A stretch of 64,000 bases of DNA from Naegleria gruberi (lineage: Eukaryota): the NCBI GenBank assembly GCA_000004985.1, contig GG738886.1, one strand, 5' to 3'. A program made the translations under genes and the position numbers. Positions within the stretch are counted from its first letter, which is position 1; every line of letters starts with the position of its first letter. Shown here one piece after another: positions 4,563-56,974 of the stretch. The notes beneath the pieces are model-generated. The model was not told the DNA's origin. It did not search any database and saw only the letters and a list, made by a program, of their open reading frames with translations.

Positions 4563-7500
4563 CTACTTTCTCTTTTTTCTGCTCTTTTGTTCTTCATCTA
4601 CTTGTCTCTTGGAGGCCAATGTCTTTTTATCGGCATATTGAATGAGAATTTCACTAATTTCTGGTGATGAAATTTCTAGACAATTCTTTCCATTTAAATT
4701 TTTCAAACTCATATCTGTATTTGGAGCAAGTGATTTGATTAAATTCTTTGATTCACTTCTGATGGCAGAAAATATTGGAGTTTCATGATTGGCGTCTAAC
4801 AAATTCAATACTTGTTTTTTGGAGGCAGCAGAAAGTTTGGAGAGTAAGGAAATAATGACTGAATATTTGAAGGATTGTAGCTCTCTCTGACCAACATTGA
4901 AATAAATTGGTAAAGAGCAATCACACATTAAGTGCATAATTGTCTTTTCTGATTCCTTCTCCTTTCTCGAAAGGAATTGAAGAATCTCTTTTTCTGTTTT
5001 CAACTTTTCTTGAACTTTTTTAAGAGGATAACCTTTCAATAAACACACTTCCAACATGCTTAAATGATAGGTAATTGGTTCATGAATAGTGTTGTACATT
5101 TTTCCAACAAACTTAATAGTAGAAGGTTTGATTCTGATAATATGACTATTAAAAAATTCTTGTAATTCACTATTTTCTTTTCTTTTCGCAATTTGTACAA
5201 TACATTTTTGTTCCAAAATATCAGAATCAATAAAATCTTCAATGTATGGTTCTAAATCTGAAAAATTACTAAAGTCAGTGAAATTGAATATATAACCTGA
5301 AATTAATTTTTTATCCTCTTGTCCTAAATTTCGTTCACTAAGCTTTTGCTTCAAGCTCTCCTCTAAAATGTGATATTGCAAGTTTGCAGTAGCAATTTCA
5401 ATGATAGTAGACTTGCAATCTTCCAATGACGCACCTAAATAATTAATAATGTTTTTAGCTACATCGTAATGCCCGTATTTGATAGCCAACATCCAAGAAT
5501 TCAATTCAGTAATACTACTCTTCTCTTCCAAATACTCATTCTTATAACCTAAGAAACCGAATCCATTTTTTGCTGCAAGAGAAACATTATTGAGTCGGCC
5601 TTCTGTTTCATCAAAAAAATACACATCTCTCCATATAGCCCTATTCAAAATATAGCTCTTTCTTCCAATCAAGCCAAGATCAATAATAGTACTACTTTCA
5701 ATGCCAAGCATTAAATATGCATGTATAGGAGTAGTAGTAACTTCACCAATCTCATCAGAACTCATTGTAATCTCAATTTCAAGGCAATTTTTTAAAACTT
5801 CTAAATTCTGTTTAAAAATAAGGAAATAATCTATTGATTGCTCAAAAGCAGCCATCAAGAGTAATTTAGCTCCATTAATAAAGGATTCTCCCTTCTTGAA
5901 TTCAAAAAACTTTGATTTAACATCTAAATTGGAGAGAGCATATTCCAAGTCACAACCCTCTTTAACAAGCATATAGCTTAAATTTTCTGAGTTTTCTAAA
6001 GACTTGCAGAGCAGAGTTTTACCTTTTGCATCTCTGACTTCCAAATCCTTCTTTAGTTTCTGAAGCAATGAGGTGGATTCCAATACTTTTTTGTCAACTG
6101 CAAACAATGCTGGCATACCATCATTATTCTTGTGGGTAACATCAATTCCCAAAGTGGTAATACAATATTCTATAATATCCATTGAACTTTTAGAGAGCAC
6201 ATGAAGAAGATTACCACCATCACTGGTTCTATAATGTTTCAATTCTTGGTTATTGTTTTGGTAAATCTTATTGAAAAACTTTAAAAATTCCAGAGCATTA
6301 TAGGAACCATATGACTTTAATCTGCTTGCCCATTGTTCTATAGTGTCCAACCCATGTGAATTTTTCTTTTCCAAAGTTTCCAGCTTAATGGTTTCAAACA
6401 ACGGCAAAAGGTGTGTACTAGTAGTTGGGAAACTATTCAATAGGGATCCTTCTGGACTGGTATAGTTAATGTCAACTCCTACAATCTCTACTAAAAACTT
6501 TGCAGTATCTAGTGGAAGAGAATTGTAGCTATATCTGTATGATTTACATAAAACATAAAAAAGATTTAGATCAGCCTTGGTGCCCTCTATTATACCATTA
6601 CTATTTCCCAAATTAATAAGAGTGGGCTCTCTTTCTAATGCTTTTTTAAACAAGGATATTCTTTCATTTGAAATAAGACTTGCCAATGGATTTGTTGCAT
6701 TTTCTATTATTAGCGGAATGTACTTATTCTCTATAACTTGGTTCAGTAGATGATCATTACCATGTATAAATATTCTATTGAACATAATATTATCCATTTT
6801 GTATCTCAAATGAGGTTCTAGATCATTGTTATCAACAAACTTTTTGTAAAACTCATTAAATGTTAAATCATTACTATATAATTCACTTTCGAAATTAGAC
6901 AATTTTACAGGAATTTCCTGAGCTTTTGCATATTCAATAATTATATCAAACAACTCATCATTTTTCAAAGAGTCCACAATCTTGAATGGGTGCAGTAGAT
7001 TCCAGTTAATATTTTCCTCATAAACCAGCATGTCCCAATACTCTAATACATTATCGTATTCATTGATGGGTTTCTCAGACTTTACATTGGAGAACCTTGA
7101 CAATATATTTGAAGCTACATTATGATACTTTAAATTAATAGATTCTAGAGAACTCATAGGTATTTCGTTCTTCTTGGGTTTTCCATTAATATAATTAATT
7201 AGGTTGTTATTATGATTGTAATAGTAATAACCATCATTTTCAGTTGATCCATAAATATTAATAGTCTTTAGATAGGAGGGATGTTTACTCTTTTTGTGAC
7301 ACTCCATTAATAGATTCAATAGGTCCATAAATCCTGTTGCTACTGCAACGCATTCCAAATCAAAAAATTCAAAGGTTTCAATCTTGTTAGGTTGTTGAAA
7401 GAATATTTCCCATCCACTTTGACAAACTCTCAACTTGGTAAAATTTGGAAAATAACCGGCCATCTGTTTCAACTTGGTACTTTTAAACTTTTCAATTTGA

Positions 7501-7808
7501 TACTTTTCTCTGGTCAACAAATCAAGAACCTTCACCTTTGGAAAGAATACCTTCTCCAAATTATTCTTCCAAAATCTATTTACAGCTCTCATATTCAATT
7601 GATCAGGATAAACCGGAACAAAATCCAAAATATATTGCATTAAATCTTCATTCACTTCCTGTCCCCACAAATTAACATAAAAATCCTGATCCACCATATC
7701 ATCAGCAACAATATTGTTTTGTGATTTTTTGGTGGAACGAGATTTCCTCTTGGGAGTTGTGCCAGCCTTGTTTATTGTTTCCTTCTTGCTGGCGCGTTTT
7801 GGAGGCAT
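4563..7808 (-). CDS. Large F-box-like / ankyrin-like repeat protein (hypothetical)
   Basis: 1081-aa single ORF. N-terminal basic region is followed by an F-box-like segment (LMQYILDFVPVYPDQLNMRAVNRFWKNN). Central and C-terminal stretches resemble ankyrin repeats (NNDGMPALFAVDKK...). No catalytic motifs. Confidence 0.4.
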   Translation of the reverse strand: MPPKRASKKETINKAGTTPKRKSRSTKKSQNNIVADDMVDQDFYVNLWGQEVNEDLMQYILDFVPVYPDQLNMRAVNRFWKNNLEKVFFPKVKVLDLLTREKYQIEKFKSTKLKQMAGYFPNFTKLRVCQSGWEIFFQQPNKIETFEFFDLECVAVATGFMDLLNLLMECHKKSKHPSYLKTINIYGSTENDGYYYYNHNNNLINYINGKPKKNEIPMSSLESINLKYHNVASNILSRFSNVKSEKPINEYDNVLEYWDMLVYEENINWNLLHPFKIVDSLKNDELFDIIIEYAKAQEIPVKLSNFESELYSNDLTFNEFYKKFVDNNDLEPHLRYKMDNIMFNRIFIHGNDHLLNQVIENKYIPLIIENATNPLASLISNERISLFKKALEREPTLINLGNSNGIIEGTKADLNLFYVLCKSYRYSYNSLPLDTAKFLVEIVGVDINYTSPEGSLLNSFPTTSTHLLPLFETIKLETLEKKNSHGLDTIEQWASRLKSYGSYNALEFLKFFNKIYQNNNQELKHYRTSDGGNLLHVLSKSSMDIIEYCITTLGIDVTHKNNDGMPALFAVDKKVLESTSLLQKLKKDLEVRDAKGKTLLCKSLENSENLSYMLVKEGCDLEYALSNLDVKSKFFEFKKGESFINGAKLLLMAAFEQSIDYFLIFKQNLEVLKNCLEIEITMSSDEIGEVTTTPIHAYLMLGIESSTIIDLGLIGRKSYILNRAIWRDVYFFDETEGRLNNVSLAAKNGFGFLGYKNEYLEEKSSITELNSWMLAIKYGHYDVAKNIINYLGASLEDCKSTIIEIATANLQYHILEESLKQKLSERNLGQEDKKLISGYIFNFTDFSNFSDLEPYIEDFIDSDILEQKCIVQIAKRKENSELQEFFNSHIIRIKPSTIKFVGKMYNTIHEPITYHLSMLEVCLLKGYPLKKVQEKLKTEKEILQFLSRKEKESEKTIMHLMCDCSLPIYFNVGQRELQSFKYSVIISLLSKLSAASKKQVLNLLDANHETPIFSAIRSESKNLIKSLAPNTDMSLKNLNGKNCLEISSPEISEILIQYADKKTLASKRQVDEEQKSRKKRK

Positions 7809-9863: not shown

Positions 9864-11213
9864 TTACAGGTCATTCGATGAAAATAATGAATCAAAAGCA
9901 CAGTCACCTTGTTCTAAAAGGAATGATTGTTTGTCGCTTGTATCTTGTTGTTGATTATTATATTCTGTTGCTGGTTTTTCAAGAGTGAGTGGACTTGTTG
10001 GTCTCACATCAATATGATTCCACCTCGACAAGTATTGAGAGTTTTGGGCAGAGTCGTTCAATAATTCATAAAATTCTTGTTCAGTGCTCATTGAATCTTG
10101 TGGTATAATGTCATTTGTTGATAACATTGGATCATTAGGGAAGAATGGAGTGGTAAACATTTGATTATTGTGAGCCATCTGCTGTGTAATTGCCTGGCTC
10201 ATAAGGTTTTGGAATTCAGTTTGGAATTGAGCAATGATTTGCTGTTGCATTTGCTTAAAAAGTTCACTACCATTTTGTTGTAATAATTGTTGTAAAAGAT
10301 GAGCAACAACAGAGGAATCTTGCTTCTTGAGCTCTGCAGAAAGGGTATTCATAGTATCTACAAGGGAGTTGAGTAATTGACTTGCCATAATATTATCAGC
10401 AGGTTTCAATTCTGGAGGAATATAAGTATTGTTGCATTGATTTGGTTGGGCAGTATTTGTTTGATTTGTAATTGTAGTGTTGTTGTTATCTTGTTTCTGT
10501 TTCTTTGATGATGATTTGTTTTCTTTTCTCTTTCTCTTGTTTGTCTTTTCATCTGATGATCCATCAGTTGAATTGATTGAAGAGTCATCTTCACTATGAG
10601 TTGCATCTTCCTCATCTTCGTGAAGTATGAAATGCTCTGTTGGACTCTTGAAGGAGACAACTTGTGGAGTACTGGTTTTTTGACCACCCTTGTTATTAAG
10701 ATCAATCACAAAGTAATTATCTGTGAAATGATCACAACTTTTGAGTTGTTTTCTCAACTTGCATAACCTCTTATTGACTGTACGAGGTGCTCCATTAAAA
10801 TTAGAGGCTGGTTTTGATGAATTTGCATTGGCTGTACATTCTTGTTGTTTCTGATGATCGGATTCATTACCAGCTTCACTTTCATCAACAAAGGTAATTT
10901 TGGATTTTGGACTCCTCTTTTTCTTGTTGGTTGCTGTTGTGGTTGTTGTAGATGTTGTCGTTGTATTCACACACTCCTTGTCTAATTTGAAAGAAGTTGT
11001 TGAAGAACCATTGGAATTGTATTTCACCTTTGTTCTAGGCTTTTTTGTTTTTGTTGTCTTGCTGTTGGTTGGTGATGAAGACTTGTCAACTTCAGTTGGT
11101 TGTTGAATATGTTGTTCTTCTTGTTGTTGCAAGGAGAGGTTAGTGGAGGAGGTGATGGCTGTCATGATTGAGTGTAATATATCAAGTGATGAAGTTAAAC
11201 TATTGATGATCAA
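9864..11213 (-). CDS. Low-complexity Q-, T- and S-rich protein (hypothetical nuclear protein)
   Basis: 449-aa ORF with poly-Q and poly-T runs and basic K/R clusters. It is long and uninterrupted in an AT-rich background, so probably real. No domain recognised. Confidence 0.35.
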   Translation of the reverse strand: MIINSLTSSLDILHSIMTAITSSTNLSLQQQEEQHIQQPTEVDKSSSPTNSKTTKTKKPRTKVKYNSNGSSTTSFKLDKECVNTTTTSTTTTTATNKKKRSPKSKITFVDESEAGNESDHQKQQECTANANSSKPASNFNGAPRTVNKRLCKLRKQLKSCDHFTDNYFVIDLNNKGGQKTSTPQVVSFKSPTEHFILHEDEEDATHSEDDSSINSTDGSSDEKTNKRKRKENKSSSKKQKQDNNNTTITNQTNTAQPNQCNNTYIPPELKPADNIMASQLLNSLVDTMNTLSAELKKQDSSVVAHLLQQLLQQNGSELFKQMQQQIIAQFQTEFQNLMSQAITQQMAHNNQMFTTPFFPNDPMLSTNDIIPQDSMSTEQEFYELLNDSAQNSQYLSRWNHIDVRPTSPLTLEKPATEYNNQQQDTSDKQSFLLEQGDCAFDSLFSSNDL

Positions 11214-11647
11214 TAATATGAACTGTTGGAAGTTACTTTAGTGGTGAGTGTGGTGGTATGGATAGGTATGATTCTTTTTATCTCGTGTTAGGATCAAAAG
11301 ACAATGCAATCAGAAATAACGTATATTGGTTGCTGTACGGGATAATAATGTATAGTGGATAATGATAGACAATAATAATAATGGCTTGTTAGTACTATAA
11401 AATGTTAGGATCGCAGTTGTTTTGGTTTACTTTGGTAAGGTTGCAGAGTACTTTCTTCTCTGCGTCGGTAAGATCCTATTATGTTGTTTTTTTTGTCTGT
11501 GTGTTTTGAGTCGCTATGAGTGATATTGTTTTATGGCGAATGATGTTATGTGTTTTGGAATCTTCGTTTGAGTTGATGGCGGTGATCAACAATATTCTCT
11601 CTCTATTGTACTGACCACCAGTGATGTGTCTCGTATGAATTCGCTCA

Positions 11648-11700
11648 ATAGAGCAGGTGCAAACTCGCGTGTAACTCGTATTTTTTATTATTTTCATTCG
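11648..11700. repeat. Candidate left terminal/subterminal inverted repeat of the Harbinger-like element
   Basis: AATAGAGCAGGTGCAAACTCGCGTGTAACTCGTATTTTTTATTA... matches the reverse complement of 13749..13800 with a few mismatches or indels. Confidence 0.45.
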
Positions 11701-12797
11701 TTATTGTCACTCTCCGATTCATCTTCTTCCTTGTCATCCTTCGTTTGGAAATTGTCAACCAATTCGACAGTGACGTTACCTGCTTCCGTTGCTGGTTGTG
11801 GAGATGAATATTCGATGGGTTGTGTGTTTGGTTGAGTGTGTTCTGTTGCATTTGAACTGTCAATCTTCTTCTTCTTTGAATAAACCATCACTGCCCTCGC
11901 AGGTTTAACAATGTCAACTTTCTTGTCACATACAATCACAAAAATCTTGTTTCCATCAGAATCCATTTCCGTTTCAATCGGCGCCAAAGTTTGCATATCT
12001 CCGTCTTTTGGAATGTATTGTTTCAAAGTGTACAGTGAGGTCGTACCACTTTGCTTTTCGTGTATGACACCAACGTCAAACTCAATTTCATCTAATACCT
12101 TTTGCATCGTTTTTGAATCTAATATCGTTTCAATGGAAACATCAATCAACAATTGCCTTTCTTTTCTACTAACACCTTGAAAAACAAATTTCAAGTGTGA
12201 AGGGTAACGAATCGCAAAAATATGCTTGGTTGCAGTTTCGAAATGATGAAACGCTAACAAGTCGGTTTCATATTTGACTGTTTTAGTGATGTGTGATTTT
12301 GATGGAGTGCGAAATAATGATTCTTCTGATGAGTCTTCAGATGATGATGAATCATCTGTGTTCGTTTCGTATTCACTTTCGTCTTCCTCTTCGTCATCAT
12401 CAACAACTTTAGGTGCTTCTAACTTTCGTTTCTTTGCTTCCTTGACACGTACCAATTCATCAGCATATTTTGCGGATTGTTCTTCAAAGTATGCCTTTTT
12501 GTTCTCCATTTCAATTGATGACTTGTCTTTAATTGTGCTTTTGTATTTTCGTTGAACTTGAGACCAACTGTAACCGTTTTCGTTCGCGAACGCAACAAAA
12601 GCGTCTTTGTTTGTTTGATAAACTTTACCTCTATTTGCGAGCCAGAAGAGGCGTAATCTTTCTGTATCAACTTCTTGCCACTTTTTGGACTTCTTTTTCT
12701 TCAGTGACTGGGCTGTATCAACAGTACTACTATTGGCAACAGAGCTAGAAGTCGGGGCTTGTACTTTTTCTGTGTTCTTCCTCTTCTTGGTGCCCAT
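11694..12797 (-). CDS. Harbinger-associated Myb/SANT-like (trihelix) DNA-binding protein
   Basis: 367-aa ORF with real ATG. Basic N-terminus, then KKWQEVDTERLRLFWLANRGKVYQTNKDAFVAFANENGYSWSQVQRKY with three spaced Trp, typical of the Myb/SANT-like partner of Harbinger/PIF elements. Acidic DE/S-rich tail. Divergent from the adjacent DDE transposase. Confidence 0.6.
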   Translation of the reverse strand: MGTKKRKNTEKVQAPTSSSVANSSTVDTAQSLKKKKSKKWQEVDTERLRLFWLANRGKVYQTNKDAFVAFANENGYSWSQVQRKYKSTIKDKSSIEMENKKAYFEEQSAKYADELVRVKEAKKRKLEAPKVVDDDEEEDESEYETNTDDSSSSEDSSEESLFRTPSKSHITKTVKYETDLLAFHHFETATKHIFAIRYPSHLKFVFQGVSRKERQLLIDVSIETILDSKTMQKVLDEIEFDVGVIHEKQSGTTSLYTLKQYIPKDGDMQTLAPIETEMDSDGNKIFVIVCDKKVDIVKPARAVMVYSKKKKIDSSNATEHTQPNTQPIEYSSPQPATEAGNVTVELVDNFQTKDDKEEDESESDNNE

Positions 12798-12863
12798 TTT
12801 TTTTTCAATTTCGAATATCGTTTTTCACAAAAACATTCGTGTTCACTTTTGAATTATGAAAAA

Positions 12864-13748
12864 ATGCAAAACTTGTTTTCTGTGTTTCGATCATACATGC
12901 CAAAAGCAACTGAAGAAACATTCAAAGCGTTTTTTGCATTCAATCCTAAGGAATTACAAATTGTTTATGACACGTTTGTTGGTAGAGTAATAGCACCAAA
13001 GTGGTTTCTAATCACCTTAGAATGGTTAACGAATTATCCTAAACATCATGTACAACATGTTTATTGGAATATTTCTAGAAGAACACTTGTTGGAAGATTA
13101 TGGAAGACGGTTTTGTTTCTCTCTCGTCTTCTCCCTGATTTTGATTTTGATGATAGACTAGAAGAAGAACCAGCAAAACGAATTTTCAAAGATATCAAGT
13201 GTATCGTTGACGGTGTTGAAATTAGAATACGTCGCCCATCTAAAAGACGATTCACTAAAAAACAAAATTGGATCCACCAGAAAACATTTTTCTCAAACAA
13301 GAAGAAAATGCATGCGATGAAATATCAAGTGGTTGTCACTCTCCGTAAAGGGAAGATTATAAATGTCAGTCGTGCGTATAGAGGACGTGTTCATGATAAA
13401 AAGATATTTGATGATTACATAAGGGAACACGGTCACGAATTTGGTGAACAAGAACATCTTGGTGACCTTGGTTATGTTGGAGTACCAGAGATATTTACAC
13501 CTTTCAAGAAACCGCGGGGTGGTGAATTAGAACAGTATCAGAAAACAATTAACAAAGTCATTGGTGCTGCGCGTGTAACTGTTGAAAATGTGATTGGTCG
13601 TATCAAACGATTTGACATACTTAACCACACATTTAGGCACCCACTTGTCAAACACGAAGATGTGTTCATCATTTGTGCGAAACTGGCGAACTTACATCTT
13701 CGCTTTCATCCCGTTCGAAAGTGTGACGAACCGCTCTTGGACGTTTAA
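12864..13748 (+). CDS. PIF/Harbinger DDE transposase (DDE_Tnp_4 superfamily nuclease)
   Basis: Conserved blocks IVDGVEIRIRRPS (D1), HAMKYQVVVTL...RVHDKKIF, GDLGYVG (D2) and NKVIGAARVTVENVIGRIKRFDIL (E) give an intact DDE triad. The first in-frame ATG of the conserved part is at 12864 (MQNLF...). The six-frame ORF begins upstream at 12759. Confidence 0.8.
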   Translation: MQNLFSVFRSYMPKATEETFKAFFAFNPKELQIVYDTFVGRVIAPKWFLITLEWLTNYPKHHVQHVYWNISRRTLVGRLWKTVLFLSRLLPDFDFDDRLEEEPAKRIFKDIKCIVDGVEIRIRRPSKRRFTKKQNWIHQKTFFSNKKKMHAMKYQVVVTLRKGKIINVSRAYRGRVHDKKIFDDYIREHGHEFGEQEHLGDLGYVGVPEIFTPFKKPRGGELEQYQKTINKVIGAARVTVENVIGRIKRFDILNHTFRHPLVKHEDVFIICAKLANLHLRFHPVRKCDEPLLDV

Positions 13749-13800
13749 TAAAAATAAAAAATAACGTTTATTTAAAAGGTTGCACCCGCTCTAATCTAGA
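13749..13800. repeat. Candidate right terminal/subterminal inverted repeat of the Harbinger-like element
   Basis: Its reverse complement reads TAGATTAGAGCGGGTGCAACCTTTTAAATAAACGTTATTTTTTATTTTT, matching the left copy at 11648..11700. Confidence 0.45.
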
Positions 13801-17685: not shown

Positions 17686-17766
17686 TGCAGAAGGTGGGAT
17701 TTGAACCCACGAAGCTTGCGCAGTAGAACTTGAGTCTACCCCCTTTGACCACTCGGGAACCCCTGC
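17686..17766 (-). tRNA. tRNA-Leu (anticodon CAA), intronless
   Basis: Reverse complement folds as a class II tRNA. Acceptor GCAGGGG/CCTTCTGC with two G-U pairs. D-arm CCCGAGTGGTCAAAGGG. Anticodon stem GTAGA/TCTAC with loop CTCAAGT. Long variable arm. T-arm GTGGGTTCAAATCCCAC. Discriminator A. The six-frame ORF 17596..17784 overlapping it is spurious. Confidence 0.8.
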
Positions 17767-21443: not shown

Positions 21444-22877
21444 TTGAAAAAAGCTGCACTTTCAGGTTATACAACAGCTAGAAAAGAAATTGAGGAGCTA
21501 GTTACTGATGAGGAGGTTTGGAGATTTCTTGTTAAAACGTATAATTGGACTGGATTTAGAGATGAATTGACATTTAACAAGGAGTTTATGTTGTTTGCTA
21601 TTGAGGAAATGATTGTTAGTGCCGAAAGTTTATTGGAAAGGTGTAACGAAAGTTTCAGAAATGATCCAGAGACTGTAAGGAGTGTATATTTTGCACATGT
21701 TGTGACTCGAACATATTCTTTAGCGGGTTTTTCAGATGATGAATATATCGGAAATCCCTTCGATATTTTGCAAACTCAAACCTATCTCTATTCACATCGG
21801 TCAATTGTTGAAAATTTGAGAAATGACCCTATTTTCATTTTGGATTGTGTAAAGAAATTTGGAAGAGTTTTGGCATTTCTTGATTTGAAATACAGATCTG
21901 ATAGAAATTATGTGCTGGAAGCTATTAGACAGATAGATGGTGGAACTTATTGTTATCACAAAGGATTATTGAGATTCGCCTCTGAGGAGTTAAGAAATGA
22001 CAGAGAAATTGTTAAGGTGGCTGTGCAAAACTGGGCCTCATGTTTCCAATTTGCATCAGATAATCTCAGAAGGGATGAAGAGGTAATTCGTGAACTCATT
22101 TCAATTTCATCAGGAAATGTTTTAGAGTATGCTGAAGAAAGTATTTTGAAAAATGTAGAACTTGTACTCTTTGGATTGGAATCGGATGCTGGTTGTTTTG
22201 AATTATTTGATCAGAGTTTACAAAATGATAGAGATTTTATACTAAGATGTGCAAAAATCAATGGTAACATACAAGTTCCAGATATGTTTTCTAGTGATAG
22301 AGAAATTATGAAAACTCTATTAGAAACTTGTTTGAGGAATCGCCAAAGTGAGAATGATATTTTTTACACAATTGATGAATCTCTGTTTATGGACATTGAA
22401 TTTGTTAAGGAGCTAGTTGATCTTTATGAAATATATCCAGACACTCATTTTCCAACAAGGTTATGCAAATTTATTAATGAAGAAATAATTTGGAAAATAA
22501 TTCAACAATCTGCAAAAAAGGGGCTAATGAGATATGAAATTCGTGAGATATCTGATGTTTGGAAAGATCCATTGTTTGTGAAAAAGGTTCTCGATCTTGG
22601 AATTAAATTATCACGAGTTGATTATACAGCATTCGCTGACGATTTGAAATTAAGGATATGGAAAGACGAAACCAATATTTATTCGTTTCCATTCAAAAAG
22701 AGCAGTATGGAATTTCAAAGACAAGCTGTCAAGCTCAAACCTGAATGTATTTACGGTTCCTACTATTTTCAAACAATTTGTGGATATAGTGAAGATCGAG
22801 AAGAATTGTTGAGGTTGAGAGCAAACAGATTGGAATATTTACAATTCCACCTCCCAAAAAGATTTGATACTTGGTGA
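21444..22877 (+). CDS. DUF4116-type repeat protein, paralog 2
   Basis: 477-aa ORF with repeats ESFRNDPETVRSVYFAHV, ENLRNDPIFILDCVKKFGRVLAFLD, EELRNDREIVKVAVQNWASCFQFAS and DNLRRDEEVIRELI. Further 5' exons are possible in 21190..21440. Confidence 0.55.
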   Translation: MKKAALSGYTTARKEIEELVTDEEVWRFLVKTYNWTGFRDELTFNKEFMLFAIEEMIVSAESLLERCNESFRNDPETVRSVYFAHVVTRTYSLAGFSDDEYIGNPFDILQTQTYLYSHRSIVENLRNDPIFILDCVKKFGRVLAFLDLKYRSDRNYVLEAIRQIDGGTYCYHKGLLRFASEELRNDREIVKVAVQNWASCFQFASDNLRRDEEVIRELISISSGNVLEYAEESILKNVELVLFGLESDAGCFELFDQSLQNDRDFILRCAKINGNIQVPDMFSSDREIMKTLLETCLRNRQSENDIFYTIDESLFMDIEFVKELVDLYEIYPDTHFPTRLCKFINEEIIWKIIQQSAKKGLMRYEIREISDVWKDPLFVKKVLDLGIKLSRVDYTAFADDLKLRIWKDETNIYSFPFKKSSMEFQRQAVKLKPECIYGSYYFQTICGYSEDREELLRLRANRLEYLQFHLPKRFDTW

Positions 22878-30181: not shown

Positions 30182-32147
30182 ATGCAACAAGCAACTTCAA
30201 GTCTAGAGGCTAACAAAGACAATGATAATCAACAAGACTCCACCTCACCATCATCCCATCAGTCTTTTCCATTAAATTCTAACAATGTTTCGAATAGGAG
30301 AACAACAATCACAGAAGAGTTGTTTAATCGTGGAGTTCTCTACGGAAAAGAGAAGGAATATGAAAAAGCCTTTCAATGTTTTATGAAAGTTGCTGAAGAG
30401 TGTGAGTGTGCTGATACACAATTTAAAATTGCTTATTATTATCATATTGGTTTGGGTGTTGAGAAGGATATTCGAAAGGCTTTCGAATGGTATTTGAAGA
30501 GTGCAGAGAATGGTTTTGCCAAAGCACAGTGTAATGTTGGATTGCTGTATCGTTTTGCAGAGGGAGTTGAACAGAATCTACCGAAAGCTTTCGAATTCCA
30601 TTTAAGGGCTGCTAAACAAGGTATAACAACCTCTATGCTTGCTGTTGCTTGTTCATACGAGTTGGGAATGGGAATAATGAGAGATATTTCGAAATCATTT
30701 GAATGGCTTTTGAAAGCTGCTGAGAATGGTGATGTAGGCGCTCAATATTATGTCGGCCATGCATATGAGATTGGAGAGGGTGTTGAACCAGATGATACAA
30801 AATCATTTGAATGGTATTTGAAAGCAGCTGAACAAATGGACGTAAGAGCACAATTAGCAATTGGCATTTCTTTTTATTGTGGAAGAGGAGTCACGGAAAA
30901 TCAAAGAAAATCATTCGAATGGTTTCTGAAAGCTGCTGAACAAGGTGATAAATCAGCACAATTTTATGTTGGATGTGCATACGATTCTGGAGAGGGTGTT
31001 GAGAAGAATAGGTATAAAGCATTTGAATGGTATCTTAAATCGGCTGAGAATGGTCATAAAGATGCACAATTCAATGTTGTTTATGCATACGAAAAGGGAG
31101 ATGGGGTTGAAGAGTGTTTCAGCAAAACAGTGTTTTGGTTAGCGAAAAGATTGAATGGTAATTTTCAATTCATTGAAAACCCTGAAGAGCAATTTGGATT
31201 AAAGGATTTTTTGTCTGAAGATTTGGCACATTTTGAGAATATCACTGAACCTGTGATTGTCAGATTTGAAGAGAGGGATTTTACAATTTCCTACGAGTTG
31301 TTGAAACATTCAAAATACTTTTCAACAATGTTGAATTTAAACTGGAATAGGTTTAATGAAAATGAGAACAAACATATTGTGCTCGATTTGAGATCTATTC
31401 AATCTGAAATATTTCAAGAACAACTTGATTGCAGTCAGATATTTGAGAATTATATTAATTGCTTAAGAGGTGGATTACCAACTAGTTGCGAAATGCAGTT
31501 GCCAGTGATTTATTTGGCAAGATATTTGGGAGATGATTCGTGTATTTTAAAAATTATGAAGAAGTCGAGTTTGTTAATGAGGTATTATTTTCTATTTCAA
31601 TTGGAAAGTCATACTAAACTTCATGTAGCCTTGGCAAGTTGTTTCTCTTCCAAACTAGCACCTACAAGAGACCTTTCAGAGGGTGTACTTGAAACACTAC
31701 TTGTTCAAAGTGAATTATCTTGGCCTGCGAAAGAAAGGATTTTTGGAGAGTATAGTCAAAGATTCAAAACACCAATTTCGTTAACGTTCAGTAAGTCATT
31801 CATTATTAACAATTATGATATTAAGCTTAATAGATAGTAATATACTCCATCTTTCCTTTAAGAGTTACCCAAGCTCGATAAAACGTACAGTAAAAAACGA
31901 AAATGTCACCTTTAAATTGAAAAAAGGAAAAGAGGATGAATTCAAAAAGTTGATAATCACTAGCTCTAAAATAATTAATTTCTTTGGAAACAATGCTAAA
32001 TTTTACATACAAATGGTTTTAGATGATAGATACCAATTTGGATTTTGGTTGGAGAGTGGTCAAATAGGAGGAAATGAAAACACAATTTTCAATTTACCAT
32101 CCTTTAACCAAAAATCTTTGAAAATTGATATGGTGGTGATAATGTGA
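30182..32147 (+). CDS. Sel1-like repeat (SLR/TPR-like) protein with C-terminal BTB/POZ-like domain; intron 31791..31833
   Basis: At least seven Sel1 repeats (KAFEWYLKSAENG...AQxxVGxxYxxGxGVExN). C-terminal PVIVRFEERDFTISYELLKHSKYFSTMLN is BTB-like. The 43-nt GTAAGT...AATAG intron joins ...SLTFSN to SNILHLSFKSYP (ORF 31815..32147). Confidence 0.5.
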
Positions 32148-55857: not shown

Positions 55858-56594
55858 TATTTACACTATTTACAGAAGAATAAATTATTGAGGTTTTTTG
55901 AGCTATTAATTACTAGAAGCACACAGGATTACTATTGTTGCTGTTGCTATTCTTGTTGTTGATTCAGCGATTGGCCTTGATTTGTGTAACGGCTAGAGAT
56001 TGAACAATCTCTATGACAGAAGCTGACTGAAACAAAAGAGTTCCAGTGGTTTGGAGTTTAAGGTTTTTTTTTTGAAAGGCCTATTCGTTCAAGCCAACGT
56101 TCCTTTTGTTGCTTCTACAAGTACATTAACCAACTCTAACTGACATCAAGATTTCATTCTTATTTATTTGAAAAAAGTAACCTTAGAGGGAAATATGCTC
56201 CAAACAAATAGTGGGTTCATTTGTTCCAACATCATGTTTCGGAAATGTCACCCCTGGCATGTGTCAATACCATTATGTAATAATATTACTACAGTAACAA
56301 CTTCATCGACAGAGCTATATCTCTGAGAATTAATATTTGGAAACCAATAGAGTTTATTGAAGTTAGCAAATAATAATAACATTGCCTCTACGGCAGTGAC
56401 GAGAAATAATCAATCAAACTTGACAATGAATGCAGCAGTGACACAAAACCCATTATCCTCTTCAAATACTCCAACCATTGTAATTCCTAATAATAATAAT
56501 AATAATATCATACAACAACAGGATCAATCATGAAAATTTAAAGTTAATAATTTGAGGTAAAAACCTTATTAAAATTTTCCAACTCGCCACGTTA

Positions 56595-56665
56595 CCGTCT
56601 CGGGAGGAATCGAACCTCCGTCAATGGATTCAAAGTCCACTATGCTACCATTACACCACGAGACG
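56595..56665 (-). tRNA. tRNA-Gln (anticodon TTG)
   Basis: Reverse complement CGTCTCGTGGTGTAATGGTAGCATAGTGGACTTTGAATCCATTGACGGAGGTTCGATTCCTCCCGAGACGG. Acceptor is 7 bp perfect. D-arm GTGTAATGGTAGCA. Anticodon loop CTTTGAA. T-arm GGAGGTTCGATTCCTCC. Closely collinear with eukaryotic tRNA-Gln(UUG). Confidence 0.8.
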
Positions 56666-56974
56666 AGCACATTTAATAACCACTTGATTATACCATAGAT
56701 AAAGAATCAAAAATGTCACTCTCAAAATATTTTTAATTTGATATAGAGGAAAGGTACGGTTTACAATTTTAAAACTTGTTTTCCATTTTGATAAATTAAA
56801 AAATATTGAAAAAAAATAGGGGAGAAACTGTGAACTCTTTCTCGATAGATATTGTATTTGGGGTTGTGATTTTTCTACTGTATGTAGATATTAATGTCTA
56901 GTATTAATGGTAAATTTTTTTAAAAGTTAGTCTGGAAGAACACGAAGAAAAAAGATGATGTTTGCGTCGACCGG

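What the first reader, a model, noticed from the sequence alone, without database searches (positions are those of the whole stretch)
11648..13800. Apparently intact, very compact two-gene Harbinger/PIF transposon with candidate TIRs abutting both stop codons
Seen: an intact DDE triad in a DDE_Tnp_4-type transposase, a divergently transcribed trihelix (Myb/SANT-like) partner gene 66 bp away, and about 50-bp imperfect inverted repeats directly after both stop codons. Established: Harbinger/PIF elements encode exactly this gene pair. Inference: at about 2.15 kb this would be an unusually small but possibly active autonomous element, sitting about 430 bp upstream of the Q-rich gene at 9864..11213.
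Basis: partly seen in the sequence, partly recalled or inferred. Interest (0 to 1): 0.6.

Follow-up and report, generated by a model that had tools for sequence, protein, structure and literature searches.

The report
Compact two-gene Pangu/Harbinger-type transposon in Naegleria
This is a real, structurally intact 2.1-kb cut-and-paste DNA transposon of the PIF/Harbinger (PHIS) superfamily in the Naegleria gruberi genome, but its ends, 3-bp AAT target duplication and unusual helper protein fit the 'Pangu' branch rather than classical Harbinger, so it is an ordinary kind of element in a new family.

Summary
The window is Naegleria gruberi NEG-M nuclear DNA. At 11650..13792 lies a 2,143-bp element that is 93% coding. 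It has a 294-aa DDE_Tnp_4 transposase (E 8.8e-31) with an intact D116/D201/E241 triad. A divergent 367-aa partner gene starts 66 bp away. The 16-17-nt terminal inverted repeats (15/17 matching, beginning AGAG) each lie 28 nt beyond a stop codon and are flanked by AAT on both sides. A 42%-identical transposase on an unrelated contig (L001) shows the same gene pair, AGAG-type termini and AAT flanks, so the unit is a mobile element and not a chance arrangement. The partner hits no Myb/SANT/trihelix profile. Its N-terminal three-helix domain is weakly closest to TALE homeodomains. Its C-terminal domain models as an HSP20/CS-like beta-sandwich. The duplication is AAT, not TWA, and the solid repeat is about 17 nt, not about 50. 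These traits match the 'Pangu' (Repbase Harbinger2-like) group of the PHIS superfamily. The study that defined Pangu surveyed Naegleria and listed no family there. The transposase gene is unannotated. Copy number, empty sites and activity could not be tested because the genome was not searchable here.

The parts
11647..11649 (.). Left copy of the putative 3-bp target-site duplication, AAT
   Evidence: Read directly. It is identical to 13793-13795. The same AAT|AGAG...CTCT|AAT arrangement occurs in L001.
11650..11665 (+). Left terminal inverted repeat, AGAGCAGGTGCAAACT
   Evidence: (I16), 13 and 29: 15/17 complementary to 13777-13793. Shuffle test: 17/5000.
11677..11701 (.). Left subterminal A/T-rich block (CGTATTTTTTATTATTTTCATTCGT). 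It overlaps the partner's stop codon and is loosely inverted relative to 13741-13766.
   Evidence: (I5, I17). It may be a 3'-end or poly(A) signal, a protein-binding site, or both. This is inference.
11694..12797 (-). Partner (ORF2) gene, 367 aa, equal to NAEGRDRAFT_51168 / EFC41385.1
   Evidence: Exact match. No Pfam hit. Six homologs by phmmer over 1.84 billion representatives. 29% identical over 143 aa to the partner in L001.
12498..12689 (-). Partner residues ~37-100: basic stretch plus a three-helix homeodomain-like HTH, the presumed DNA-binding domain
   Evidence: AF2 helices 42-54, 63-74 and 78 onward at pLDDT ~80-90. The family profile hits PBX1/Exd homeodomains at E 4e-4 to 1e-2. Foldseek top hits are homeodomains but not significant (E>=0.28).
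11913..12263 (-). Partner residues ~179-295: conserved C-terminal beta-sandwich with an HSP20/alpha-crystallin/CS-like fold
12798..12863 (.). 66-bp intergenic spacer between the divergent start codons, the presumed bidirectional promoter
   Evidence: Coordinates. The promoter function is inferred.
12864..13748 (+). Transposase gene, 294 aa, DDE_Tnp_4 / IS5-like. Catalytic D116 (13209-13211), D201 (13464-13466), E241 (13584-13586).
   Evidence: Pfam DDE_Tnp_4 8.8e-31. NCBIfam IS5_4 2.5e-15, below cut-off. Triad invariant. Absent from N. gruberi protein sets.
13741..13766 (.). Right subterminal A/T-rich block overlapping the transposase stop codon
13777..13792 (-). Right terminal inverted repeat (reverse complement AGAGCGGGTGCAACCT)
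13793..13795 (.). Right copy of the putative target-site duplication, AAT
   Evidence: Read directly.

Best explanation
Window 11650..13792 is one insertion of a cut-and-paste DNA transposon of the PHIS (PIF/Harbinger-ISL2EU-Spy) superfamily in Naegleria gruberi. It fits the 'Pangu' (Repbase Harbinger2-like, IS5-like) group best.

Shown:
- A small IS5-like DDE transposase with an intact catalytic triad.
- A divergently transcribed partner gene.
- 16-17-nt AGAG-type TIRs, each flanked by AAT.

Inferred mechanism, by analogy with reconstructed Harbinger3_DR (my own knowledge of Sinzelle et al. 2008):
- The partner carries lysine-rich NLS-like stretches and a homeodomain-like three-helix HTH.
- It binds the element ends or subterminal sequence, and it recruits and imports the transposase. 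Its HSP20/CS-like beta-sandwich may serve as the protein-protein interface.
- The transposase then cuts at the TIRs and integrates at an ANT trinucleotide with a 3-nt stagger, producing the AAT duplication.

The copy is structurally competent for autonomous transposition. Whether it is active now is unknown.
For: - Host identity.
- Transposase: DDE_Tnp_4 at 8.8e-31 with full model coverage; D/D/E invariant; IS5-family similarity.
- Ends: TIR 15/17, symmetric at 28 nt from both stops, rarer than chance at p~0.003-0.007. Identical AAT flanks.
- Independent element L001: transposase 42% identical, divergent partner 29% identical, TIR TAGAGTCTGTAAAATTCC(T/C)G with 1 mismatch, and again AAT|AGAG...CTCT|AAT.
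- A third relative, L009, ends ...GTCT|ATT, which also fits ANT.
- Both ORFs are full-length relative to homologs.
- Pangu as defined by Han et al. 2015 has an ANT TSD, TIRs of 11-40 bp starting AG/GG, a transposase with DDE only, an ORF2 without known motifs, and lengths down to 2,092 bp.
Against: - No empty site and no second copy in N. gruberi could be examined, because the genome is not in any searchable collection here.
- The annotated proteome holds no second copy of the partner above 31% identity and no transposase paralog at all.
- No extra termini occur in the 64-kb window.
- A 2-bp TA duplication with GAG...CTC termini is also formally compatible with the flanks.
- Phylogenetic placement among Pangu transposases was not tested, for lack of reference sequences.
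- The partner's roles in DNA binding and transposase recruitment are inferred only.
- The homeodomain match is marginal (E~4e-4).
Confidence: 0.85

Rival explanations
1. It is a classical PIF/Harbinger element: a DDE_Tnp_4 transposase plus a Myb/SANT/trihelix partner, inserting at TWA.
For: DDE_Tnp_4 transposase and two-gene architecture. The partner's N-terminal domain is a three-helix bundle of the same broad fold class as Myb/SANT, and a few SANT/Myb structures appear among the weak fold hits. Repbase files many Pangu families simply as 'Harbinger'.
Against: The flanks are AAT/AAT in two independent elements, not TAA/TTA. No Myb/SANT/MADF/trihelix Pfam hit in 7 family members at E<=10. Profile hits go to homeodomains only. 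Pfam detects no HTH_Tnp_4 in the transposase.
Confidence: 0.07
2. It is an immobile relic or a domesticated transposase-partner gene pair (as with HARBI1/NAIF1 or ALP1/ALP2), kept by the host and no longer transposing.
For: It looks single-copy. No close paralog of either protein is in the annotated N. gruberi proteome. The genome is TE-poor at 0.28%. Partner homologs occur alone, without a transposase, in N. fowleri and on contig L006, which suggests the partner family can persist as a host gene. The TIRs differ at 2 of 17 positions.
Against: Recognizable TIRs and a perfect 3-bp duplication are still present. The catalytic triad is intact. The same unit with its own TIRs and TSD sits at an unrelated site in another genome. 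Domesticated Harbinger genes normally lack TIRs and are not adjacent.
Confidence: 0.1
3. It is the same transposon but with a 2-bp TA duplication and GAG...CTC termini, so the target rule is not Pangu-like.
For: The sequence AATAGAG...CTCTAAT can also be read as TA|GAG...CTC|TA in the window, L001 and L009.
Against: This reading leaves unexplained why the further flanking bases also agree with a 3-bp repeat. The base 3 nt before AGAG is A in both elements where it can be seen. The base 3 nt after the end is T in 3 of 3. The middle bases are equal. I roughly estimate p~0.03 per element in 33% GC DNA. No PHIS group with a TA duplication is described in PMC4482050.
Confidence: 0.08
4. It is not a mobile element: two ordinary neighbouring host genes whose 3' flanks resemble each other by chance or through shared terminator signals.
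For: The inner part of the inverted repeat is A/T-rich and overlaps the stop codons, as 3' signals would. The 17-nt core alone is only moderately significant.
Against: The protein is a DDE transposase. The core TIR is G/C-rich. L001 repeats the gene pair, the AGAG termini and the AAT flanks in a different genomic context.
Confidence: 0.02

Closest known systems
Pangu group of the PHIS superfamily (Han et al. 2015, Mob DNA 6:12; many filed in Repbase as Harbinger2-*/Harbinger-*)
   Same: 3-bp ANT-type duplication (AAT here). TIR of 16-17 bp starting AG. Transposase with only a DDE_Tnp_4 domain (294 aa, within the 216-537 aa range). Second ORF of ~170-590 aa without a recognised Pfam domain. Compact size (2,143 bp against 2,092 bp for Pangu-2_PInf).
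   Different: The host is a heterolobosean. No PHIS family was listed for Naegleria although both N. gruberi and N. fowleri were in that survey. Here ORF2 can be given a homeodomain-like HTH plus an HSP20/CS-like beta-sandwich. Whether Pangu ORF2s share this is unknown. Phylogenetic membership is untested.
Classical PIF/Harbinger (e.g. Harbinger3_DR, PIF, Pong)
   Same: Same superfamily of DDE transposase. Requirement for, or presence of, a second gene encoding a DNA-binding protein. Short TIRs. 3-bp duplication length.
   Different: The target is TWA there and AAT here. The partner there is Myb/SANT/MADF/trihelix, which is not detected here. Those elements average ~4.1 kb. The transposase there usually has a detectable HTH_Tnp_4.
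Bacterial IS5-family insertion sequences (NCBIfam transpos_IS5_4; HTH_Tnp_4 + DDE_Tnp_4 proteins P0003-P0012, P0038)
   Same: Closest non-eukaryote-like relatives of the transposase, at 33-36% identity over 70-80% of the protein. Similar protein length (~300 aa). Han et al. note that the ANT duplication is IS5-like.
   Different: Those are single-gene elements in bacterial contexts. The window element has a second gene and sits in a eukaryotic nuclear genome.
ISL2EU and Spy groups of PHIS
   Same: Related DDE_Tnp_4 catalytic domain.
   Different: ISL2EU has an AT duplication in an A|AT|T target, a THAP domain and a YqaJ-nuclease partner. Spy has no duplication and a single ORF. None of these features is present here.

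Membership tests
PHIS superfamily (PIF/Harbinger sensu lato) | DDE_Tnp_4 / IS5-like transposase with an intact DDE triad | tested here: met
   Pfam PF13359 at 8.8e-31 and 107 bits against a cut-off of 24.8. D116/D201/E241 invariant.
PHIS superfamily (PIF/Harbinger sensu lato) | Terminal inverted repeats bounding the coding unit | tested here: met
   15/17 nt at 11649-11665 / 13777-13793. The homologous element L001 has a 22-24-nt TIR with the same AGAG start.
Classical PIF/Harbinger | 3-bp TWA (TAA/TTA) target-site duplication | tested here: not met
   The flanks are AAT/AAT in the window and in L001. No register gives TAA or TTA on both sides.
Classical PIF/Harbinger | Second ORF with a Myb/SANT/trihelix-type DNA-binding domain | tested here: not met
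   No Pfam match in the partner or 6 homologs at E<=10. Profile-vs-PDB hits are homeodomains only. The fold is a generic three-helix 'homeodomain-like' bundle, so a very remote Myb relationship cannot be excluded.
Classical PIF/Harbinger | HTH (HTH_Tnp_4) N-terminal to the DDE domain of the transposase | tested here: inconclusive
   Pfam does not detect it at E<=1. Residues ~47-80 do align with the HTH_Tnp_4-bearing region of bacterial relatives.
Pangu group (PHIS) | 5'-ANT-3' target-site duplication | tested here: met
   AAT in the window, AAT in L001, and a right flank ATT in L009. No empty site was available, so the 3-bp register is inferred rather than proven.
Pangu group (PHIS) | TIR of 11-40 bp beginning AG or GG | tested here: met
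   AGAGCAGGTGCAAACT / AGAGCGGGTGCAACCT, 16 nt. Definition.
Pangu group (PHIS) | Transposase with a DDE domain only, and a second ORF without known motifs | tested here: met
   Definition.
Pangu group (PHIS) | Transposase clusters phylogenetically with Pangu reference transposases | not testable with these tools
   No Pangu/Repbase reference sequences were obtainable. The supplement gives only coordinates and an image alignment.
ISL2EU | AT duplication, THAP domain, YqaJ-exonuclease partner | tested here: not met
   None found. Definition.
Active autonomous transposon | Multiple near-identical copies, insertion polymorphism, or an empty site in the same genome | not testable with these tools
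   The N. gruberi genome is not in any searchable collection. N. gruberi proteins P0024 and P0025 are 'not on record' for loci. Within the window there are no further termini and no further protein matches.

The most novel reading that the evidence does not exclude
The element could represent a previously undescribed PHIS lineage, so far seen in Naegleria and a few unidentified microbial eukaryote contigs. Its helper protein would not be Myb/SANT-type but would combine a TALE-homeodomain-like DNA-binding domain with an HSP20/CS-like beta-sandwich. The same helper family appears to have been retained as stand-alone host genes in N. fowleri and elsewhere, which would be a new accessory-protein architecture and a possible case of domestication. 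The element could also be one of the very few still-mobile DNA transposons in the TE-poor Naegleria genome.
Probability: 0.35. Interest if true: 0.45.

Novelty: new member of a known kind. Interest (0 to 1): 0.3.

Why it matters
Naegleria genomes carry very few transposable elements (about 0.28%). A dedicated survey of PHIS transposons that included N. gruberi and N. fowleri listed none there.

An intact two-gene element with an unannotated transposase therefore does three things:
- It corrects the genome annotation.
- It extends the host range of Pangu/IS5-like eukaryotic transposons to Heterolobosea.
- It offers a very compact candidate (2.1 kb, 93% coding) for a transposon tool in an organism with limited genetics.

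The helper protein's domain make-up gives a first structural handle on the 'motif-less' ORF2 of Pangu-type elements. None of this changes how such transposons are thought to work.

Tried and rejected
- Pfam scans of the partner and all 6 homologs at E<=10 found nothing relevant.
- A word-indexed homology search with the partner found only itself. Exhaustive phmmer was needed to find 6 relatives.
- Locus look-ups for the N. gruberi paralogs P0024 and P0025 failed because they are not on record. I could not see whether they sit next to unannotated transposases.
- The metagenome scan with the transposase profile gave one partial locus, L007. The viral-contig scan gave none.
- L003 (P0002) looks like a 5'-truncated copy without a recognisable partner or TIR.
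- Around the N. fowleri and L006 partner homologs I found no transposase and no convincing TIRs. An AATAGAGACATTGCAA string in L004 lies in the wrong position, upstream of the gene, and I treated it as chance.
- The profile of the transposase clade hit no solved structure.
- afdb50 was unavailable for fold search.
- The Foldseek search of the isolated N-terminal domain was not significant (E>=0.28).
- Literature searches for Naegleria plus Harbinger and for Repbase-style names (Harbinger-1_NGr and similar) found no description of this element.
- The bacterial promoter/terminator scan is irrelevant for a eukaryote and showed nothing above shuffles.
- Codon-usage and GC comparison with host ORFs was only mildly atypical and not informative about age or horizontal transfer.
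- The bacterial relative L008 showed no clear IRs within 250 bp.
Full report
**Host and context**

Ten long ORFs of the window were looked up by exact sequence. Eight are annotated Naegleria gruberi proteins on one 358,576-bp scaffold. Other ORFs encode typical eukaryotic housekeeping proteins, including Utp12/WDR3, MIOS, a VPS9-domain protein, Oxa1 and PNKP, and a DUF4116 repeat protein. The window is about 33% GC, densely coding and mostly intron-free. So the finding lies in a nuclear genome of a heterolobosean amoeba. A 2026 preprint reports that this genome has only 0.28% transposable-element content.

**Checking the observation**

- ORF 12864..13748 (+) encodes 294 aa. It matches Pfam DDE_Tnp_4 end to end (E 8.8e-31, 107 bits, cut-off 24.8), and DDE_Tnp_1 more weakly.
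- In an alignment with eight relatives, D116, D201 and E241 are invariant in the expected motifs VDGxE, LxDxG(Y/F) and RVxVE. I verified the codons at 13209-13211, 13464-13466 and 13584-13586 in the sequence.
- The ATG at 12864 is the first in-frame ATG. The N-terminus aligns from residue 4 with the closest homolog.
- ORF 11694..12797 (-) encodes 367 aa. It starts 66 bp from the transposase ATG, in divergent orientation.
- The inverted repeat is real but shorter than described. It is a 17-nt core, TAGAGCAGGTGCAAACT / TAGAGCGGGTGCAACCT, with 15/17 matching.
- Each arm lies exactly 28 nt beyond a stop codon.
- An equal or better ungapped match between the two 100-nt flanks arose in 17 of 5000 shuffles and in 37 of 5000 random window pairs.
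- Further in, both ends share an A/T-rich block (TATTTTTTATT) that overlaps the stop codons. This part may be ordinary 3'-end signal similarity.
- Immediately outside AGAG...CTCT both flanks read AAT (11647-11649 and 13793-13795).
- The element proper is 11650..13792, which is 2,143 bp and 92.8% coding.

**Evidence that the unit is mobile**

- The transposase's best database hit is P0001 (42% identity). It lies on a 3,158-bp contig of assembly GCA_050043615.1.
- That locus, L001, has the same layout. A divergent 330-aa gene has a C-terminal half 29% identical to the window partner (E 7e-15).
- L001 has TIRs TAGAGTCTGTAAAATTCC(T/C)G with one mismatch. Its junctions are identical in form: AAT|AGAG...CTCT|AAT.
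- Its flanks are unrelated to the window. The left AAT overlaps the TAA stop of a host ORF.
- So there are two independent insertions of diverged family members with the same architecture, the same terminal tetranucleotide and the same 3-bp flank. This excludes chance and excludes a mere pair of host genes.
- A third, single-ORF relative (L009) ends ...GTCT followed by ATT.
- The flanks can also be read as TA|GAG...CTC|TA. That reading leaves the agreement of the outer bases unexplained in every case. I therefore favour a 3-bp ANT duplication. An empty site is still needed for proof.

**The partner protein**

- The partner is annotated as NAEGRDRAFT_51168, 'predicted protein'.
- No Pfam family matches it or any of its six homologs, even at E<=10.
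- Exhaustive phmmer found a small family:
  - three further N. gruberi proteins (EFC49158, EFC39267, EFC50541);
  - one N. fowleri protein (FDP41_012129);
  - the L001 partner;
  - two metagenomic proteins.
- The family alignment shows four regions in order: a lysine-rich N-terminus, a ~60-aa conserved block (KxF...L...F..FA...GFT.SQV...Y), an acidic linker, and a ~120-aa conserved C-terminal domain.
- AlphaFold2 with this alignment gives three helices for the first block and a beta-sandwich for the last. pLDDT is about 80 for both, and the rest is disordered.
- A profile of the family, or of the N-terminal block alone, hits only homeodomains among PDB sequences. PBX1 scores E 4-5e-4 across the whole homeodomain including the TALE-length loop, followed by Extradenticle and engrailed.
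- Structure search of the isolated domain also lists homeodomains first, but not significantly, with a few SANT/Myb domains among them.
- The supportable statement is 'homeodomain-like three-helix HTH, closest to TALE homeodomains, marginal significance'.

**Classification**

Han et al. 2015 (PMC4482050) divide the PHIS superfamily by target duplication and coding capacity:

| Group | Target duplication | Partner or other trait |
|---|---|---|
| PIF/Harbinger | TWA | Myb/SANT partner |
| ISL2EU | AT | THAP domain, YqaJ partner |
| Spy | none | single ORF |
| NuwaI / NuwaII | CWG / TNA | Myb partner |
| Pangu | ANT | see below |

- Pangu has TIRs of 11-40 bp starting AG or GG, a transposase with only the DDE domain, and a second ORF without known motifs. 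Its target rule is IS5-like.
- Their Table S3 lists Pangu elements of 2,092-7,867 bp with 13-40-bp TIRs. Many are filed in Repbase as Harbinger or Harbinger2.
- The window element meets every descriptive Pangu criterion. It fails two defining criteria of classical PIF/Harbinger.
- Its nearest relatives outside its own small clade are bacterial-type HTH_Tnp_4 + DDE_Tnp_4 proteins and the NCBIfam IS5_4 model. This agrees with the IS5-like character of Pangu.
- I could not test phylogenetic membership because no reference sequences were available.
- Size is at the low end but not unprecedented (Pangu-2_PInf, 2,092 bp).

**Novelty and status**

- Han et al. screened N. gruberi and N. fowleri (their Table S9), but Naegleria appears in none of their family tables.
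- Literature searches found no description of this element.
- The transposase ORF is absent from all protein sets searched. The exact look-up failed, and the best hit in 5.8 billion clusters is 42% identical. It is an unannotated gene.
- Whether the copy is active is open.
  - In favour: both ORFs intact, triad intact, perfect duplication, TIRs 88% matched.
  - Against, or unknown: no close paralog of either protein in the annotated proteome, no additional termini in the window, and no access to the rest of the genome.

**Mechanism**

- Shown: the parts list above.
- Inferred from the family's known biology (reconstructed Harbinger3_DR, my own knowledge):
  - The partner provides nuclear import through its KKRK / KKKKSKK stretches.
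  - It provides end recognition through its HTH.
  - It contacts the transposase, plausibly through the HSP20/CS-like domain.
  - The transposase excises at the AGAG termini and integrates at ANT with a 3-nt stagger.

**Verdict**

This is a correct detection of an intact, compact two-gene PHIS transposon. It should be reclassified from classical Harbinger to Pangu-like, with a partner that is not Myb-type by any test available here. It is a new family of a known kind, of modest interest. Its main value lies in annotation, in extending the host range, and in a first structural view of a Pangu-type ORF2.

Noticed in passing
window 12864-13748 (+): The intact 294-aa transposase ORF has no counterpart in the N. 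gruberi protein sets (NCBI, UniRef, EukProt). Its partner and both neighbouring genes are annotated. It is a missing gene model.
   Followed up: yes
L004 6001-6984 (N. fowleri VFQX01000013.1); L006 1626-2771 (ENA contig): Full-length homologs of the partner protein occur without any DDE transposase within the retrieved flanks and without recognisable TIRs. N. gruberi also has three diverged paralogs (EFC49158, EFC39267, EFC50541). They may be domesticated or orphaned helper genes.
   Followed up: partly
L007 ~130-140 (VFQM010031116.1): A very A/T-rich transposase relative has an in-frame TGA exactly where the relatives have a conserved Trp (DEW motif). This suggests a host that reads TGA as Trp, or a pseudogene. 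A different ORF follows the transposase in tandem.
   Followed up: no
L001 420-424: In the related element the AAT duplication overlaps the TAA stop codon of the upstream host ORF (L001 3-422). The insertion sits precisely at a gene end without destroying the stop.
   Followed up: partly
L009 1-1139 (Logan SRR12687326): A 1.14-kb single-ORF, IS-like relative (33% identity) with 18-nt inverted repeats TAGACA(A/T)TATTGGAAAGT. It may link bacterial IS5-type elements and the two-gene eukaryotic form.
   Followed up: partly
window 17686-17766 (-), 56594-56666 (-), 57433-57504 (-): Three tRNA genes (Leu-CAA, Gln-TTG, Gly-GCC) lie scattered among protein-coding genes.
   Followed up: no
window 21444-22877 (+): A protein with four DUF4116 repeats. 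Other repeat proteins in the window include Sel1 (30182-31837) and ankyrin (4563-7808).
   Followed up: no
window 11694-12797 and 12864-13748: Both element genes are slightly GC-richer (37-38% against 34.4 +/- 2.5%) and further from the local codon usage than most host ORFs of the window. The difference is within the range of short host genes.
   Followed up: partly
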